DNA of 64,000 nt, from the NCBI GenBank assembly GCA_965603725.1, contig CBFDEC010000006.1, forward strand, positions 5,997 to 69,996, given 5' to 3'. This stretch comes from an uncultured bacterium (GTDB lineage Bacteria > Zixibacteria > MSB-5A5 > UBA10806 > 4484-95). A program made the translations under genes and the position numbers. The notes under the pieces were generated by a model. It worked only from the letters and a program-made list of their open reading frames with translations. It had not been told where the DNA came from and ran no database searches. Shown here one piece after another: positions 6,428 through 46,755 of the stretch. Within the stretch, counting starts at the first letter, position 1; each line of letters starts with the position of its first letter.

Positions 6428-7306
6428 ATGAAAAAATCGTCGCGCCTGCTATATGCAATCACTCTGATTTTATGTAATCCCGGTATATCGGTAGCCCGTT
6501 TGGCCGATAAATGCGGCGTAACCGAAAGGACAATTTACCGGGATATTATCGATATCTCTGAAGCTAACATTCCCATTTACTTTGATAATGGCTACCGTAT
6601 CCTCGATACCGGGAAGGTGCCTCCGTTAAACTTCACCAGCGATGAGTTGATTTATCTGTATAACATTCTTCAAAGTAAGTCCCATAGCGAAGTGTTTGGC
6701 GGGGTTGGCAATAGGCTGGCGGATAAACTGAGACGTCACATTCCGGGAATCTTGAATGACAAAAATATCGGGTTTCATACTCATTCGACCGACACCACAG
6801 CCCTGGCAAAGATATTCGCCAGAATTGAAAAGACAATTAGTTCCGGCAAAATTATAAGTTTCAAATACACATCCTTAAACGGCAAGACATCCCGGCGAAA
6901 CGTTCATCCATACGGTCTTGTTTTCAGGGGTCATGGCTGGTACCTGGTCGGTTATTGTGAGGCAAGGGAAGAGGTCAGGATTTTCCGGCTTGTCAGGATA
7001 TCGAATTTACGGGCAATTCAAAAAAGGTTTGATAAACAGGCGGATTTTTCCATTGATGAGTTTATGGATGAAAGCTGGGCCGTTTTCAGGGGAGAGCATT
7101 ACAACTTTGAAATAAAATTTACCGGACCGGCGGCGGTTGCAGCATCTACAACCTGCCATCACAAAGATGAGAAAGTTGTAAAAAAAGGAAAAAACCACGT
7201 TATTTATAGCGTGAAATCCCGCGGCAAAGAGGAATTTATAAATGGGTGCTGTCATTCGGCAGGCATGCAGAATTGCTCGAACCGGTTCATCTTCGGCAGG
7301 AGGTAA
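6428..7306 (+). CDS. HTH + WYL-domain transcriptional regulator (YafY/PafBC-like). The C-terminus appears frameshifted; the full-length frame would end near 7345.
   Basis: N-terminal HTH_11-like segment (RLLYAITLILCNPGISVARLADKCGVTERTIYRDI). WYL domain (SFKYTSLNGKTSRRNVHPYGLVFRGHGWYLVGYCEAREEVRIFRLVRI). In the next frame the expected WCX tail appears from about 7242 (WVLSFGRHAELLEPVHLRQEVKKRLEASL...), after an A-run at 7238-7243. Confidence 0.7.
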   Translation: MKKSSRLLYAITLILCNPGISVARLADKCGVTERTIYRDIIDISEANIPIYFDNGYRILDTGKVPPLNFTSDELIYLYNILQSKSHSEVFGGVGNRLADKLRRHIPGILNDKNIGFHTHSTDTTALAKIFARIEKTISSGKIISFKYTSLNGKTSRRNVHPYGLVFRGHGWYLVGYCEAREEVRIFRLVRISNLRAIQKRFDKQADFSIDEFMDESWAVFRGEHYNFEIKFTGPAAVAASTTCHHKDEKVVKKGKNHVIYSVKSRGKEEFINGCCHSAGMQNCSNRFIFGRR

Positions 7307-8153: not shown

Positions 8154-8160
8154 AAAGGAT

Positions 8161-8232
8161 GCCCCCGTAGCTCAGTGGATAGAGCATCGGCCTCCGGAGC
8201 CGTGTGCGGCCGTTCGAGTCGGCCCGGGGGTA
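8161..8232 (+). tRNA. tRNA-Arg (anticodon CCG)
   Basis: Manual cloverleaf fold. Acceptor GCCCCCG/CGGGGGT with a G1:U72 wobble. D-arm GCTC-AGTGGATA-GAGC. Anticodon arm TCGGC-CTCCGGA-GCCGT with one U:U mismatch at 27:43. 4-nt variable loop. T-arm GGCCG-TTCGAGT-CGGCC. Discriminator A, no encoded CCA. Closely resembles E. coli tRNA-Arg(CCG). Confidence 0.8.
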
Positions 8233-8341
8233 TAATGATCATGACAAAACGCTGACGGCCGGTTTGATTATGCGGTGAAAATGGCAGGAGAATTATCAAT
8301 AAACATTATCCTTTATTTGACGATTTTTCTATTATATACAA

Positions 8342-10203: not shown

Positions 10204-11202
10204 ATGAAGTATTTCTTTTGCAGGCTAAGTTGGATGGAATTATATCAAGGTTGTTCTTATGATAAGCCAATATATGGCGGGAAATTCCCAGAGGAAGAAG
10301 GATATTGTTTTGAATCATATAATTTTAAACCTTATAGAAATCATCTTTATGGTTTTGTAAAAAGTCGAAATTATAATTCAAATATATCAATTGAAAATTT
10401 AGGAGCACAAAAAAAGGATAATTCCATTAAAGATATTACTGTTGTTTATTTTGCCACAAAACCAAAAACTGGCGGGCAATATATTATTGGATGGTACAAA
10501 AACGCAACCGTATTCAGGCACTTTCAGAAAAATCTACCAAAGAAAACTGGTAGAATATTTCCTAAATGGAACTCTAATGAAGTAATAGGTTATCATATCA
10601 AGGCATCCATAAAAGATGCTATTTTACTTCCTCCTGAGGAGAGGGTTTTTAAAATCTTACATAAATCTGTTGGAGGACCAGGGATTTCCCAGTTGTGGTA
10701 TTGTAATAAAGGTAATAAAGAACAATTAAAGTTTTTAAAGGATGTTGAATATTACATCAAGTATAGAAAGTTGCCGAAATCTATAATATCAAAAAGAAAA
10801 TCTTCAAAAAAAGTACTCCAAGATTATAAAAAGATAAAGGAAACTGAATTAAAAGCAATGAATATTATTAAAGAGTATTATTATTCGTTGGGATATGTTA
10901 TCGATGATGTAAGTAAAGATAATCTTGGCTATGACTTGGAAGCTTATAATGATAACAATTTATTGTATCTTGAAGTAAAAGGATTATCAAGCAATAACCT
11001 TTTTACTGAATTAACTCCAAACCAATTTCAAACAATGAATGATAATAAGGATAATTATAGGATTTGTATTGCAGCAGATATTTCAACAAAAAAACCAATT
11101 ATTTATATATTCAGATATTCTTATGAGAAAGGTTGCTGGATTGACCAGAATAGTAATAAATTGATTATAAAAAGAAAAACTGGTGCTAAGATATGGATTT
11201 AG
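10204..11202 (+). CDS. Hypothetical protein in an AT-rich island; the C-terminal region is PD-(D/E)xK/DUF3883-like (putative nuclease); N-terminal domain unknown
   Basis: The gene and its upstream spacer look about 30% GC against roughly 45-50% in flanking DNA. The C-terminal segment GYDLEAYNDNNLLYLEVKGLSSNNLFTELTPNQFQTMNDNKDNYRICIA fits the D...ExK core and the DUF3883 (NO VEIN C-terminal) pattern G.D...EVK...f.LT.nQ. It is lysine-rich. Confidence 0.5.
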   Translation: MKYFFCRLSWMELYQGCSYDKPIYGGKFPEEEGYCFESYNFKPYRNHLYGFVKSRNYNSNISIENLGAQKKDNSIKDITVVYFATKPKTGGQYIIGWYKNATVFRHFQKNLPKKTGRIFPKWNSNEVIGYHIKASIKDAILLPPEERVFKILHKSVGGPGISQLWYCNKGNKEQLKFLKDVEYYIKYRKLPKSIISKRKSSKKVLQDYKKIKETELKAMNIIKEYYYSLGYVIDDVSKDNLGYDLEAYNDNNLLYLEVKGLSSNNLFTELTPNQFQTMNDNKDNYRICIAADISTKKPIIYIFRYSYEKGCWIDQNSNKLIIKRKTGAKIWI

Positions 11203-11215
11203 AAAATATTTTAAT

Positions 11216-11308
11216 GCGTCAGGATGGAAACCCGCCTAAGGCGGGTGACATATTAACGCTGCGGCGGAGAAACCTTCATGGTGTCGTTCCTTCCATCCTG
11301 AGGGATAT
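11216..11308. repeat. MITE-like structured repeat, copy A (TIR GTCAGGATGGAA ... TTCCATCCTGAG)
   Basis: Shares GCGTCAGGATGGAAA...GCGGCGGAGAAA(C/T)C..TGTCGTTCCTTCCATCCTGAGGGATAT with copy B. The two differ in an internal segment, and this copy has an internal hairpin CCCGCC-TAA-GGCGGG. Confidence 0.7.
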
Positions 11309-11353
11309 GAAATGGGCGTAGGGGTTTGATTAATCAAACCTCTGCAGTTTAGT

Positions 11354-11437
11354 GCGTCAGGATGGAAATGAAATGACATCCTGACGTTGCGGCGGAGAAA
11401 TCCTCAGGATGTCGTTCCTTCCATCCTGAGGGATATA
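11354..11437. repeat. MITE-like structured repeat, copy B
   Basis: Same termini as copy A. It has two internal hairpins with the same arms (GTCAGGATG/CATCCTGAC and CCTCAGGATG/CATCCTGAGG). Confidence 0.7.
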
Positions 11438-11471
11438 AAGACTTTGCAAGTAATAACCGGAAAGGTAAAAG

Positions 11472-12326
11472 ATGAAACTCGGCAATCTTGAATTGATATC
11501 GATACTGGAAAACAGTTTCAAGCTCGATGGCGGGGCAATGTTCGGAATCATCCCCAAAATTATCTGGAGCAGGATGGTTACTGCTGATGAAAACAACCTT
11601 ATTCCTTTAGATATCAATCCGCTTATTATCAAAACCGGCGATGAAATTTTGCTAGTCGATGCCGGTTTCGGCGACATCTTAAACGAAAAGCAAATGAAGA
11701 TATTCGGCATTAGCGGTCCTACTCGCTGGGATCATGAGCTTAGCCAAAATAATATCAAACCAGAGGATATCACCGGTGTAATATTTACTCATCTTCATTC
11801 CGATCACGCTATGGGAGCTTTGAAAAAAGGCGATGACGGCGAACCCGAGCTGCGTTTTCCCAATGCTAAATACTATGTCCATAAGCGTGAATGGCAGGAT
11901 TCTATAAATCCCAATGAGCGCACGGCCGCTACATATTTCAAGAATCATCTGCGGCTGTTTGAACAGTCCGGCAAACTTGAGCTTCTCAATGGCGATACGG
12001 AGCTTTTTCCCAACATTCATATCAAGCATCTTGGTGGTCATACTCCGGGCATGCAGGGAGTCATTATAGATGCAGACGGTCAGCGCGTAATATATCCCGG
12101 TGATTTAATCCCGCTTCAATACAATATCAAAATACCTTATGTCCCGGCTGTTGACCTTGACCCTATCGCCTCGATGAACCAGAAACGCTGGCTTGTTAAA
12201 AAAATGCTGAAAGAGGACTGGATTTTAGCGTTTGACCATGACATCGAGTTTAAATTTGCCAGGTTCAAGATAGATGATAAGGGGAAAGTCATCCCGGTTA
12301 AGATTGATCAAGAATATGTAATGTAA
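11472..12326 (+). CDS. MBL-fold metallo-hydrolase
   Basis: HxHxDH motif (THLHSDHAMGAL) and later His/Asp ligands (HLGGHTPG, DHD). Length 284 aa. Confidence 0.8.
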   Translation: MKLGNLELISILENSFKLDGGAMFGIIPKIIWSRMVTADENNLIPLDINPLIIKTGDEILLVDAGFGDILNEKQMKIFGISGPTRWDHELSQNNIKPEDITGVIFTHLHSDHAMGALKKGDDGEPELRFPNAKYYVHKREWQDSINPNERTAATYFKNHLRLFEQSGKLELLNGDTELFPNIHIKHLGGHTPGMQGVIIDADGQRVIYPGDLIPLQYNIKIPYVPAVDLDPIASMNQKRWLVKKMLKEDWILAFDHDIEFKFARFKIDDKGKVIPVKIDQEYVM

Positions 12327-13957: not shown

Positions 13958-13985
13958 TGCAGTCAGAAGTAACTTCTGACTGCAC
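13958..13985. repeat. REP palindrome TGCAGTCAGAAGT-A-ACTTCTGACTGCA (orientation TAA)
   Basis: Perfect 13-bp arms. Belongs to the CAGAAGT(A/T)ACTTCTG family seen five or more times in 13958-15215. Confidence 0.75.
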
Positions 13986-14002
13986 AGAAGAATAAATTAT
14001 TT

Positions 14003-14458
14003 ATGGCATTGTTGAGTATGACTAAGGATAGATATTTAAATTTATTGATTGAATACGGATATATTTATGATAATGATTTCTATAATTGGGTGTTAATAGC
14101 AAATTTAGTATTTGTGATATTTTTTGGATTGATGGGTTACTGGGTATTGGAAAATATCATAGGGTTTATCGCAGGGGTTGGCTTAAGTTTTATATTATGG
14201 CGAAGTGTAAATAAAAAAATATGGTGGTTACGTAAAGAATACTATGTGCCATTTTTATATTCCTACAGATTTACCCAATTTGATAATATTGATATTGATT
14301 TACTGGGGAAGTTTATGCGTGGCCTTTATATGAAAGTAGAGAAAGTGAGCGCCCAAGAAGTTAAGAGCATAATTGAGCAAGGAAATAATGATTCTTCTAT
14401 TCCTTATAATTATGTAAAGAATATCGCAAATAAATATGAAACAAAATATGCTTTATAA
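14003..14458 (+). CDS. Hypothetical small membrane protein (151 aa), AT-rich, bounded by REPs
   Basis: Two predicted TM helices and no recognisable domain. It lies between REP 13958-13985 and REP 14488-14509, which are in opposite orientations. Confidence 0.4.
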   Translation: MALLSMTKDRYLNLLIEYGYIYDNDFYNWVLIANLVFVIFFGLMGYWVLENIIGFIAGVGLSFILWRSVNKKIWWLRKEYYVPFLYSYRFTQFDNIDIDLLGKFMRGLYMKVEKVSAQEVKSIIEQGNNDSSIPYNYVKNIANKYETKYAL

Positions 14459-14487
14459 ATTCTCTGTTTTGTGTCCCAACCTTAAGC

Positions 14488-14509
14488 GGCGCCAGAAGTT
14501 ACTTCTGGC
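14488..14509. repeat. REP palindrome GGCGCCAGAAGT-T-ACTTCTGGC (orientation TTA)
   Basis: Same core as the other REPs; the outer arms differ (GCGCC versus TGCAGT). Confidence 0.75.
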
Positions 14510-14534
14510 TGAACAAGCAGAAATAATTTACAGT

Positions 14535-14559
14535 GGTGTCAGAAGTTACTTCTGACACC
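14535..14559. repeat. REP palindrome GGTGTCAGAAGT-T-ACTTCTGACACC
   Basis: Perfect palindrome, 24 nt upstream of the RAYT start codon. Confidence 0.75.
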
Positions 14560-14582
14560 TGCTAATAAAACATATATTGTAA

Positions 14583-15095
14583 ATGGGAAGACGATACCGA
14601 CAAAATGTTAAAGGTGGATGTTATTTCGTTACGACATCTGTAGCGGGTTTTATTAAAGTTTTCGATGATCCACATTGCTCCAAAATTGTCATAGATTCAT
14701 TGCATTACTGCAAGCAAAAATTTAATTTTACGTTGGATGCTTACGTAATCATGCCTGATCATCTTCATTTAATCCTGACTATAGAAGAAAATTCTAAAAT
14801 TTCAAATATTATGAGAGATTTTAAAAAATATACTTCGGTGGCAGTCAAACGATATTTGTTAGAAGGAAATAATGATAAAATATATTTTCAGTTACTTAAA
14901 CAAGTACCCAGCAGACCTGAAAGATCGTTTAAACTATGGCTGGATAGATTTGATGATGTTGCCATATATTCAGAAAAGGTATACTTGACAAAGTTACAGT
15001 ACATTATTAACAACCCAATAAAAGCTGGTCTTGTTGCGAAACCTGAGGATTGGCAATATCTATATTATGAATCGATGAATTGCAGTCAGAAGTAA
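14583..15095 (+). CDS. REP-associated tyrosine transposase (RAYT / TnpA_REP, IS200-like Y1 HuH family)
   Basis: HuH motif VIMPDHLHLILT. C-terminal block KLQYIINNPIKAGLVAKPEDWQY typical of Y1 transposases and RAYTs. 170 aa. Flanked on both sides by REP palindromes, one of which overlaps its stop codon. Confidence 0.8.
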   Translation: MGRRYRQNVKGGCYFVTTSVAGFIKVFDDPHCSKIVIDSLHYCKQKFNFTLDAYVIMPDHLHLILTIEENSKISNIMRDFKKYTSVAVKRYLLEGNNDKIYFQLLKQVPSRPERSFKLWLDRFDDVAIYSEKVYLTKLQYIINNPIKAGLVAKPEDWQYLYYESMNCSQK

Positions 15096-15108
15096 CTTCT
15101 GACCGCAC
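15081..15108. repeat. REP palindrome TGCAGTCAGAAGT-A-ACTTCTGACCGCA overlapping the RAYT stop codon
   Basis: The core TAA of the palindrome is the RAYT stop codon (..CSQK*). Confidence 0.75.
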
Positions 15109-15140
15109 AAGGATTCTGACTGCACCAGAAGGTTTTAGGT

Positions 15141-15164
15141 GGCGCCAGAAGTTACTTCTGGCGC
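15141..15164. repeat. REP palindrome GGCGCCAGAAGT-T-ACTTCTGGCGC, with half-REP remnants at 15111-15126 and 15201-15215
   Basis: Perfect palindrome. The flanking fragments CTGACTGCACCAGAAG and ATGCTTCTGACTGTA look like degraded copies. Confidence 0.7.
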
Positions 15165-46728: not shown

Positions 46729-46755
46729 GTTGTCGGAAGTAACTTCCGACAGCAC
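46729..46755. repeat. REP-like palindrome variant GTTGTCGGAAGT-A-ACTTCCGACAGCA
   Basis: Same architecture as the 13958-15215 REPs, with CGGAAG replacing CAGAAG in both arms, which is a compensatory change. Confidence 0.6.

What the first reader, a model, noticed from the sequence alone, without database searches (positions are those of the whole stretch)
11216..11437. Two MITE-like structured repeats immediately downstream of the island gene
The two copies are about 90 bp each and 45 bp apart. They share the termini GCGTCAGGATGGAAA ... TGTCGTTCCTTCCATCCTGAGGGATAT, so the ends are inverted repeats (GTCAGGATGGAA / TTCCATCCTGAG). Their internal segments differ: copy A has a CCCGCC-TAA-GGCGGG hairpin, and copy B has a second CAGGATG/CATCCTG hairpin. 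This looks like a miniature inverted-repeat or REP-like element family distinct from the CAGAAGTAACTTCTG REPs 2.5 kb away. Its position right after the AT-rich gene suggests an insertion hotspot, or that the gene was mobilised with them.
Basis: seen in the sequence. Interest (0 to 1): 0.5.

Follow-up and report, generated by a model that had tools for sequence, protein, structure and literature searches.

The report
Small hairpin-doublet repeat in Zixibacteria
The two repeats are real copies of a small, non-coding, hairpin-forming repeat of the REP/REPIN/MITE kind that also occurs at a second place in the same uncultured Zixibacteria genome; it is a fairly ordinary kind of bacterial "junk-like" repeat, not a regulator of the neighbouring gene.

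Summary
Copies A (11207-11311) and B (11348-11439) share three blocks: a 16-nt head, a 13-nt middle block (TGCGGCGGAGAAA) and a 27-nt tail. A GTAG-tagged palindrome (11318-11343) lies between them.

Each copy is an inverted doublet of a ~30-nt hairpin module (CGTC/CCTC-CAGGATG...CATCCTG). It can fold as two 10-11-bp hairpins or as one long hairpin.

- It is not a conserved leader. Sister Zixibacteria have the same MBL-carboxyltransferase operon without it, and Rfam has no match.
- A strain 94.5% identical has one rearranged copy (C) and keeps the ancestral promoter-like region. In the window, B sits in that region's place.
- A fourth copy (D) lies at an unlinked locus, between a DSR1 defence gene and pdxS. 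It was assembled from the same samples at matching coverage.
- No other copy turned up in about 87 kb of this population, in 185,579 species genomes, in viral contigs, plasmids or phages.
- No target-site duplication, no parent IS and no covariation were found.

Best reading (about 0.6): a low-copy, lineage-specific REP-dimer/REPIN-like or MITE-like repeat, possibly handled by the REP-associated tyrosine transposase 3 kb downstream. Both loci border AT-rich defence-like genes, but that is only two loci. Interest is modest.

The parts
11207..11311 (+). Copy A of the repeat, the degenerate and elaborated form. Lead TATTTTAATG. Hairpin 1 arms 11217-11226 / 11249-11258 (8 of 10 pairs), with an inserted GC hairpin at 11231-11245 in its loop. 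Linker TGCGGCGGAGAAA 11260-11272. Hairpin 2 arms 11273-11283 / 11294-11304 (10 of 11 pairs, two of them G.U).
   Evidence: model R1, 98.5 bits
11318..11343 (+). GTAG-tagged palindrome (GTAG-GGGTTTGAT-TA-ATCAAACCTC) between the two copies. It is a separate REP-type hairpin, kept next to copy C in strain L003.
   Evidence: (I3). The GTAG-tag definition is from PMC3733652.
11348..11439 (+). Copy B, the intact form. Hairpin 1 CGTCAGGATG 11355-11364 / CATCCTGACG 11377-11386. Linker TGCGGCGGAGAAA 11388-11400. Hairpin 2 CCTCAGGATG 11402-11411 / CATCCTGAGG 11422-11431. It occupies the place of the ancestral promoter-like region of the MBL operon.
   Evidence: I11, I12, I5; 118.3 bits
10204..11202 (+). 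Context: AT-rich (26-35% G+C) acquired gene for a NOV_C/DUF3883-domain protein, bordering the 5' side of copy A.
11472..12326 (+). Context: MBL-fold hydrolase gene, first gene of the conserved MBL-carboxyltransferase pair. Its ancestral upstream region is replaced by copy B.
14583..15095 (+). Candidate trans-acting partner (inferred only): REP-associated tyrosine transposase (RAYT), flanked by its own palindromes (13962-13980, 14491-14509, 14538-14556, 15085-15103, 15144-15162).
   Evidence: NF047646, 126 bits against a cut-off of 80

Best explanation
The two repeats are copies of a small (about 85-120 nt), non-coding, lineage-restricted structured repeat of the REP-dimer / REPIN / MITE-like kind.

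Anatomy. One unit is an inverted doublet of a ~30-nt hairpin module. The heads are CGTC and CCTC, the stem is CAGGATG/CATCCTG, and the loops GAAATGAAATGA and TCGTTCCTTC are reverse complements of each other. A conserved 15-nt linker (YTGNGGCGGAGAAAY) joins the two modules. One strand can therefore fold either as two 10-11-bp hairpins or as one long hairpin.

Shown:
- At least four copies exist at two unlinked intergenic loci of one Zixibacteria population.
- The number of copies and their internal make-up differ between strains that are 94.5% identical. Three different small hairpins are inserted at three different sites.
- Sister species lack the element at the same locus.
- There is no conserved ORF and no Rfam family.
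- In the window, copy B stands where relatives have the promoter-like TTGCYA-N18-TATAWT of the MBL operon.

Inferred:
- The unit spreads or duplicates as a folded single strand. This could be through a HUH/Y1 transposase such as the RAYT encoded 3.1 kb downstream, whose own flanking palindromes share the head TGC(A)GTCAG...CTGAC. It could also be through local recombination or slippage.
- B arose by local duplication or conversion.
- Any effect on neighbouring genes (a structured 5'UTR or 3'UTR, or a new -10-like TATAAA at B's 3' junction) is secondary.
For: - Repeat and structure.
- The two folds differ by only about 2-10 kcal/mol in the four copies.
- Extra copies: C in L003 and D in L087/L131/L133/L134.
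- Same population: contigs of both loci come from the same ENA samples with co-varying coverage (7.3 against 6.2, and 5.0/4.6 against 4.4) and from the same Logan run.
- Absent from the orthologous regions of relatives at 72-79% protein identity.
- Coding DNA of L003 against the window is 94.5% identical with one gap over 2,481 nt, whereas A and C differ by several indels.
- No Rfam hit. The reading frames are broken.
- Six assemblies end in or at the element or its flank, as expected for repeated or polymorphic DNA.
- A RAYT with REPs is present.
- REP dimers that fold either separately or as one large stem-loop, with CGTC heads often changed to CCTC, are described in PMC3733652.
Against: - Copy number is low in what could be searched: 3-4 copies in about 87 kb. 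The model R1 found nothing more.
- An exact-pattern scan of 185,579 species genomes gave only chance hits. A scan of JGI metagenomes gave one real contig.
- No target-site duplication and no parent IS were found.
- The RAYT's own flanks carry a different palindrome.
- The CGTC heads are base-paired, and the loops are 10-12 nt. This differs from the described CGTC REP families.
- The linker GGCGGAGAAA is invariant while the stems vary, which hints at a constraint that a purely selfish repeat would not need.
Confidence: 0.6

Rival explanations
1. It is a functional RNA: either a small RNA gene, or a cis-acting RNA module in the 3'UTR of the upstream gene or the 5'UTR of the downstream gene. It would act as a processing or stability element, or display the GGAG-containing linker.
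For: - The + strand folds better than the - strand for A, B and D: -43.0/-41.9/-45.9 against -36.1/-37.2/-41.5 kcal/mol.
- Five one-sided changes keep pairing as G.U on the + strand, against one on the - strand.
- Copy D sits 8-12 nt after a promoter-like TTGACA-17-TATCCT.
- The linker GGCGGAGAAA is invariant in all four copies.
- All copies have the same orientation as the downstream gene.
Against: - No pair shows a compensatory change, and the shuffle controls are not exceeded.
- For copy C the - strand folds better.
- No terminator-like site lies in 11203-11471.
- There is no Rfam family.
- The element is absent from sister species that have the same flanking operon.
- A 5:1 ratio is not significant (binomial P about 0.11).
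- A and C are visibly decayed.
Confidence: 0.2
2. It is a recombination or insertion hot-spot: a site next to which single-gene, AT-rich defence cassettes are inserted, or which travels at their border.
For: - At both loci the 5' side of the unit abuts an AT-rich defence-like gene. These are the NOV_C-domain gene (26-35% G+C) and a split DSR1/SIR2 gene (29-35% G+C).
- Both loci are structurally polymorphic between strains.
- In A, the lead shared with D (TATTTTAATG) is cut off exactly at the end of the NOV_C gene.
Against: - There are only two loci.
- No recombinase gene was noticed among the immediate neighbours of either locus, but integrases were not searched for.
- The integron attC end consensus (RYYYAAC / GTTRRRY) is absent (read).
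- The unit has core-like G+C.
- The nearest NOV_C homologue (L130) has no copy and is flanked by GTAG hairpins instead.
- Variable intergenic regions collect both islands and small repeats anyway.
Confidence: 0.1
3. It is an array of binding sites for a DNA-binding protein: the CAGGATG heptamer occurs four times per unit as two inverted pairs.
For: Perfect heptamer pairs in B and D. The site lies upstream of operons.
Against: - The half-sites are 10-12 bp apart, which is unusual for operators.
- The pairs are decayed in A and C.
- The unit occurs upstream of unrelated genes.
- It is absent from relatives with the same operon.
Confidence: 0.05
4. It is a conserved regulatory leader or tandem riboswitch of the MBL-hydrolase/carboxyltransferase operon.
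For: Position in the 5' region of the operon, tandem arrangement, and strong predicted structure.
Against: - Relatives with the same operon (L004-L010) have 360-500-nt upstream regions with no trace of it.
- The closest strain has one copy, and it lies upstream of the native promoter-like region.
- Copy D is upstream of pdxS, an unrelated gene.
- No Rfam hit.
Confidence: 0.02

Closest known systems
REP dimers / REPINs (REP doublets forming hairpins; Bertels & Rainey 2011, PMC3116915; Di Nocera et al. 2013, PMC3733652)
   Same: - Two inverted copies of a short palindromic module, joined by a short conserved spacer.
- They can fold separately or as one large stem-loop.
- Intergenic location, mostly downstream of or between co-directional genes.
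- Variable between strains.
- The host encodes a RAYT.
   Different: - Only 3-4 copies were seen in about 87 kb, whereas REPINs usually number tens to hundreds per genome.
- The RAYT in the window is flanked by a different palindrome.
- There is no unpaired GTAG head.
CGTC-tagged REP families CGTC-1 to CGTC-4 (PMC3733652)
   Same: - The modules begin with CGTC (hairpin 1) and CCTC (hairpin 2), and CCTC is a variant noted for these families.
- They occur as inverted dimers.
- No dedicated transposase is known.
   Different: - Here the CGTC/CCTC head is base-paired with GACG/GAGG rather than unpaired.
- Stems are 10-11 bp, not 8-9 bp with A.T at the first two positions.
- Loops are 10-12 nt, not 4-5.
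- There is no CCA tail.
- The phylum (Zixibacteria) is not among those listed.
Bacterial MITEs that fold as long RNA hairpins (Correia/NEMIS, ERIC, RUP; review PMC10969869)
   Same: About 100 nt, terminal inverted repeats of 11-16 nt, intergenic, co-transcribable with neighbours, variable central part.
   Different: - No target-site duplication.
- No related full-length IS identified.
- Low copy number.
- The internal double-hairpin symmetry is more REP-like.
IS200/IS605-derived palindrome-associated elements and their Y1 (HUH) transposition on single strands (PMC6006769)
   Same: - Two similar subterminal hairpins on one strand.
- No target duplication.
- A conserved short sequence immediately 5' of the element (TTTARTG).
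- A Y1-family enzyme is encoded nearby.
   Different: No cleavage-site or guide pairing was demonstrated. The nearby enzyme is a domesticated-type RAYT that is syntenic in relatives which lack this element.

Membership tests
MITE | Short, non-coding unit | tested here: met
   85-118 nt. No frame is kept between copies and stops occur in all frames.
MITE | Terminal inverted repeats | tested here: met
   TCAGGATGGAA / TTCCATCCTGA is 11/11 in A, B and D. It extends to 16 nt at 88% (I2 and I5).
MITE | Target-site duplication flanking each copy | tested here: not met
   The flanks of A, B, C and D share no direct duplication. The 5' flank is a conserved TTTARTG. The 3' flanks read TATGAA, TATAAA, TAGAAC and AATATT.
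MITE | Many dispersed copies and a parent IS with the same ends | tested here: inconclusive
   Two unlinked loci were found. There are no further copies in about 87 kb, none in genome contigs, and no IS with these ends in the window.
REPIN / REP-RAYT system | Inverted doublet of a palindromic REP able to form one long hairpin | tested here: met
   Hairpin 2 is the reverse complement of hairpin 1, loops included. The long-hairpin MFE is -41.9 (B) and -45.9 (D) kcal/mol.
REPIN / REP-RAYT system | Cognate RAYT gene flanked by the same REP | tested here: not met
   The RAYT at 14583-15095 is flanked by GYCAGAAGTWACTTCTGRC. Only the head TGC(A)GTCAG / CTGAC is shared.
REPIN / REP-RAYT system | High abundance within the genome | tested here: inconclusive
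   Only 3-4 copies in about 87 kb. The complete genome could not be searched.
CGTC-tagged REPs (PMC3733652) | Unpaired CGTC (or TGTC/CCTC) tag at one end of the palindrome | tested here: inconclusive
   CGTC (hairpin 1) and CCTC (hairpin 2) are present at the 5' ends but are paired with GACG/GAGG.
CGTC-tagged REPs (PMC3733652) | Stem of 8-9 bp with A.T at positions 1-2, loop of 4-5 nt, short CCA-like tail | tested here: not met
   Stems are 10-11 bp starting A.T then G.C. Loops are 10-12 nt. There is no CCA tail.
Riboswitch / conserved cis-regulatory leader | Conserved upstream of orthologous genes, with covarying pairs | tested here: not met
   Absent upstream of the MBL gene in L004-L010. 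There are 0 pairs with changes on both sides. No Rfam match was found at gathering threshold or at an E-value up to 10.
Integron attC site | R''/R' ends RYYYAAC ... GTTRRRY at the 3' end of a cassette | tested here: not met
   The ends read (A/G)TGCGTCAGG ... CCTGAGGGATA on one strand and its complement on the other. Neither matches the consensus. Whether an integron integrase is present nearby was not tested.
Type III toxin-antitoxin RNA repeats | Short tandem repeats directly upstream of, and co-transcribed with, a toxin endoribonuclease gene | tested here: not met
   The copies lie downstream of the NOV_C gene and upstream of a conserved metabolic operon. D is divergent from DSR1. No ToxN/AbiEii-type gene is adjacent.

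The most novel reading that the evidence does not exclude
The unit, in its full form with its own promoter-like 55-62-nt lead (as at copy D), could be a defence-island-associated module. It would be either a structured RNA expressed next to single-gene defence cassettes (NOV_C, DSR1) that regulates or antagonises them, or an integron-independent recombination site at which such cassettes are exchanged in Zixibacteria.
Probability: 0.07. Interest if true: 0.7.

Novelty: new member of a known kind. Interest (0 to 1): 0.27.

Why it matters
Small structured repeats are well charted in Proteobacteria and hardly at all in uncultured phyla. This locus documents a hairpin-doublet family in Zixibacteria, living beside a RAYT with its own REPs and beside GTAG-type hairpins.

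It shows such a repeat rewiring a locus. One copy has displaced the ancestral promoter-like region of a conserved operon, and related strains differ by whole copies and by inserted mini-hairpins.

It matters practically for metagenomics, because six assemblies break at or in the element.

Both known loci border AT-rich defence-like genes. If that holds genome-wide, it would bear on how single-gene defence islands are placed. With two loci this is only a lead.

Tried and rejected
1. Rfam at gathering threshold on the whole window, and at an E-value up to 10 on 11100-11550. It found only a tRNA and sub-threshold noise.

2. An exact two-block pattern, TCAGGATGGAAN{15,45}GGCGGAGAAA.
- In genome contigs it gave 45 stretches, all chance, mostly coding and including an Amycolatopsis gene family.
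- In metagenome contigs it gave 58 stretches, of which one was real.
- Two patterns in viral contigs gave chance hits only.
- These scans need exact matches, so diverged copies would be missed.

3. A concatenated six-frame translation of the four copies, used as a protein query to catch spurious ORFs over other copies. This wasted one search.

4. blastn (distant mode) of the intergenic region against plasmids and phages gave no match.

5. Searching for a strain without the NOV_C gene, or for the left flank of copy C.
- The 100%-identical NOV_C entry P0121 is not retrievable.
- The ProRS 90% cluster holds only this sequence.
- ProRS contigs are identical to the window.

6. Covariation test of both candidate folds. 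Four sequences are too few and too similar, and no pair changes on both sides.

7. Leader-peptide idea. GGAG in the linker is followed by ATG, giving MSFLPS* or MVSFLPS*. The frame and peptide are not kept in copy C, so this was rejected.

8. Integron attC, type III antitoxin and riboswitch readings were rejected on their defining features (see the membership test).

9. Extending the genome beyond the window ends. Only about 2 kb was gained, and it holds no copy.

Full report
OBSERVATION

The 269-nt gap between the AT-rich gene (10204-11202, +) and the MBL-fold hydrolase gene (11472-12326, +) holds two related units. Copy A is 11207-11311 and copy B is 11348-11439.

The two copies share three blocks:
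- a 16-nt head, TGCGTCAGGATGGAAA;
- a 27-nt tail, TGTCGTTCCTTCCATCCTGAGGGATAT.

The longest gap-free direct repeat is 66 nt at 86% identity. The terminal arms TCAGGATGGAA / TTCCATCCTGA are fully complementary in both copies. Copy A has an extra CCCGCC-TAA-GGCGGG hairpin (11231-11245).

Copy B contains the heptamer CAGGATG/CATCCTG four times. These make two perfect 10-bp hairpins: 11355-11364 with 11377-11386, and 11402-11411 with 11422-11431.

In the whole 64-kb window, the arm matches with 0-1 mismatch only in this locus. RNA folding z-scores are -4.3 (A) and -6.1 (B).

Between the copies lies a separate palindrome with an unpaired GTAG head (11318-11343).

ANATOMY

Hairpin 2 (CCTCAGGATG-TCGTTCCTTC-CATCCTGAGG) is the reverse complement of hairpin 1 (CGTCAGGATG-GAAATGAAATGA-CATCCTGACG), loops included. 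One unit is therefore an inverted doublet of a ~30-nt palindromic module around a 15-nt linker.

As a result, one strand can adopt two folds:
- two local hairpins, or
- one long hairpin, with the outer arms paired and the inner arms paired.

The two folds differ by about 2-10 kcal/mol across the four copies, for example -41.9 against -35.4 for B and -45.9 against -42.2 for D. Both strands fold well, as RNA and as DNA.

No reading frame is kept between copies. Rfam has no match on the window apart from a tRNA, and only sub-threshold noise over the locus itself. No terminator-like site and no + strand promoter-like site lie inside 11203-11471.

ORGANISM AND COMPARISON WITH RELATIVES

Homologues of the MBL protein carry the name candidate division Zixibacteria. 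The MBL-carboxyltransferase gene pair is conserved in relatives at 72-79% protein identity (L004-L010). Their upstream regions are 360-500 nt long and show no trace of the element, either by blastn or with a covariance model built from the copies (R1). Reading them directly gives the same answer. A conserved leader or riboswitch of this operon is therefore excluded.

The closest strain, L003, has an MBL protein 97% identical. Its coding DNA is 94.5% identical over 2,481 nt with a single gap. It has one copy (C), followed by the same GTAG palindrome. After that come about 125 nt containing a promoter-like TTGCYA-N18-TATAWT. This motif is shared with L004 and L007 and is missing from the window.

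In the window, copy B stands in the place of that region. So B is a lineage-specific gain that displaced the ancestral upstream sequence.

Copy C's 5' half is B-like (92% identity). Copy C also carries two further small hairpin inserts, at sites different from A's insert. The element therefore changes far faster than its surroundings, mainly through indels of mini-hairpins.

OTHER COPIES

An exact two-block pattern found nothing real in one genome per species for 185,579 species. It also found nothing real in viral contigs. The window's own genome is evidently not in the genome collection. Plasmids and phages gave no match.

In JGI metagenomes one real hit appeared. This is copy D, at the end of contig L087, next to an AT-rich gene pair that matches the DSR1 (SIR2-domain) defence protein.

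Looking up that protein gave contigs with the full copy D (L133 and L134). D is intact, with two perfect 11-bp hairpins.

These contigs come from the same two ENA samples and the same Logan run as contigs identical to the window. Their coverage co-varies:
- ERZ25073477: 7.3 (window locus) against 6.2 (D locus);
- ERZ25073474: 5.0 and 4.6 (window locus) against 4.4 (D locus).

D is therefore most likely a second locus of the same genome or population.

In all, about 87 kb of this population could be searched. It holds three copies at two loci, plus a possible fourth just beyond the end of L134.

Six assemblies end in or at the element or its flank: L002, L003, L087, L131, L134 and L135. That fits repeated or polymorphic DNA.

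THE D LOCUS

In the element's orientation, the order is as follows:
- DSR1, divergent;
- a 55-62-nt promoter-like sequence (TTGACA-17-TATCCT);
- copy D;
- a 19-mer;
- a GTAG-headed hairpin;
- a second copy of the promoter-like sequence (98% identical);
- about 115 nt;
- pdxS.

L134 has a third, 100%-identical copy of the promoter-like sequence. It follows a 50-nt pdxS 5' fragment and a G-rich hairpin. I could not resolve this polymorphism.

The short lead TATTTTAATG before the element is shared by A and D, with near-identical variants before C (TTTTTTAATG) and B (GTTTAGTG). In A the similarity to D stops exactly at the end of the NOV_C gene.

STRAND AND COVARIATION

On the two-hairpin structure, 88% of cells pair. 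On the long-hairpin structure, 92% pair. No pair changes on both sides, and the shuffle controls are not exceeded. Four close sequences cannot show covariation.

Five one-sided changes keep pairing as G.U on the + strand, against one on the - strand. The + strand RNA is 4-7 kcal/mol more stable for A, B and D, but not for C. This is a weak hint of + strand constraint (binomial P about 0.11).

COMPARISON WITH KNOWN KINDS

The window encodes a REP-associated tyrosine transposase (NCBIfam NF047646, 126 bits against a cut-off of 80). It is flanked by five GYCAGAAGTWACTTCTGRC palindromes, and a sixth lies at 46732. That family is distinct from the element studied here. The heads do resemble each other, though: TGCAGTCAG against TGCGTCAG, with the matching CTGAC. 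I treat this as a lead only.

Di Nocera et al. (PMC3733652) sort REPs into GTAG- and CGTC-tagged super-families. They note that:
- CGTC is often changed to CCTC;
- these repeats mostly form inverted dimers;
- dimers can fold separately or as one large stem-loop;
- CGTC repeats lack a dedicated transposase.

The present unit resembles this. Its heads are CGTC and CCTC, and it is an inverted dimer with a conserved spacer. It fails the family definitions, however. The head is paired, the stems are 10-11 bp, the loops are 10-12 nt, and there is no CCA tail.

As a MITE it has the size and the inverted ends. It lacks a target-site duplication and a parent IS. As a REPIN it has the architecture. It lacks the abundance, and the RAYT is not flanked by the same repeat.

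VERDICT

The general classification as a MITE/REP-like family is largely right: a further copy exists, and it is not a leader of the MBL gene. The specific MITE features are not met. The idea that the island gene travelled with the repeats has no support. The unit has 47-51% G+C against 26-35% for the gene, and the nearest NOV_C homologue (L130) is flanked by GTAG hairpins with no copy of this element.

The best explanation (about 0.6) is a low-copy, lineage-specific hairpin-doublet repeat of the REP-dimer/REPIN kind. It would be duplicated locally and moved at least once to another locus, plausibly as a folded single strand. Its effects on neighbouring genes would be incidental.

The rivals are:
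- a functional RNA (about 0.2);
- a recombination or insertion hot-spot for AT-rich defence genes (about 0.1);
- an operator array (about 0.05);
- a conserved leader (about 0.02, effectively refuted).

This is a new member of a known kind. Interest is modest, at about 0.27.

Noticed in passing
window 13958-15163 and 46732-46750: A REPtron. A REP-associated tyrosine transposase gene (14583-15095; NF047646, 126 bits) is flanked by five GYCAGAAGTWACTTCTGRC palindromes (13962, 14491, 14538, 15085, 15144), and a sixth lies at 46732. The RAYT plus the upstream 151-154-aa gene are syntenic after the carboxyltransferase gene in relatives L008-L010, so the RAYT looks domesticated.
   Followed up: partly
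window 11318-11343; L003:138-163; L130:66-92 and 1136-1163; L133:8160-8214 (- strand): GTAG-headed palindromes (REP-like) recur. One lies between copies A and B and is kept in L003. Two in inverted orientation flank the 43%-identical NOV_C homologue in L130. One lies about 60 nt 3' of copy D.
   Followed up: partly
window 11340-11471, compared with L003:200-286, L004:1390-1524 and L007:1650-1788: The promoter-like TTGCYA-N18-TATAWT upstream of the MBL-carboxyltransferase operon is shared by three relatives and is missing from the window, where copy B replaces it. The only -10-like hexamer left is TATAAA (11433-11438), at B's 3' junction. The nearest + strand promoter-like site is 11141-11168, inside the NOV_C gene.
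   Followed up: partly
L133:8100-8404; L134:1-588: A 55-62-nt promoter-like sequence (TTGACA-17-TATCCT) is present twice in L133 and three times in L134. L134 also joins a 50-nt pdxS 5' fragment to a GGTGCCCCACCCCC...GGGGGTGGG hairpin and a 19-mer (CATTGGTTGGCTAAAATCC) that also follows copy D. This is an unresolved structural polymorphism at the DSR1-pdxS locus.
   Followed up: partly
L087:244-3802: The DSR1-like defence gene is split into two overlapping ORFs (651 aa with a SIR2 domain, and 538 aa with DUF4020). They match the N- and C-terminal parts of PADLOC Dsr1. This is either a frameshift or a genuinely two-gene form. The region has 29-35% G+C against about 43% for its flanks.
   Followed up: no
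window 10204-11202: The island gene encodes a 332-aa protein. Only its C-terminal ~90 residues match a known domain (NOV_C/DUF3883), and these weakly match the C-termini of the PADLOC TmtA/HmaA helicase-type defence proteins. The N-terminal ~210 residues have no family. The best homologues are at most 43% identical and are scattered (Hymenobacter, Bacteroidales, metagenomes).
   Followed up: partly
window 6428-7306 and 8160-8233: An HTH_11/WYL-domain regulator gene and a tRNA-Arg(CCG) lie upstream of proS and the AT-rich gene. WYL regulators often accompany defence loci.
   Followed up: no
window 11472-12326: The MBL-fold protein's best NCBIfam match is the YtnP quorum-quenching lactonase model, but far below its cut-off (197 bits against 425). 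Precomputed Pfam lists a faint Anti-Pycsar Apyc1 hit. Its function is open.
   Followed up: no
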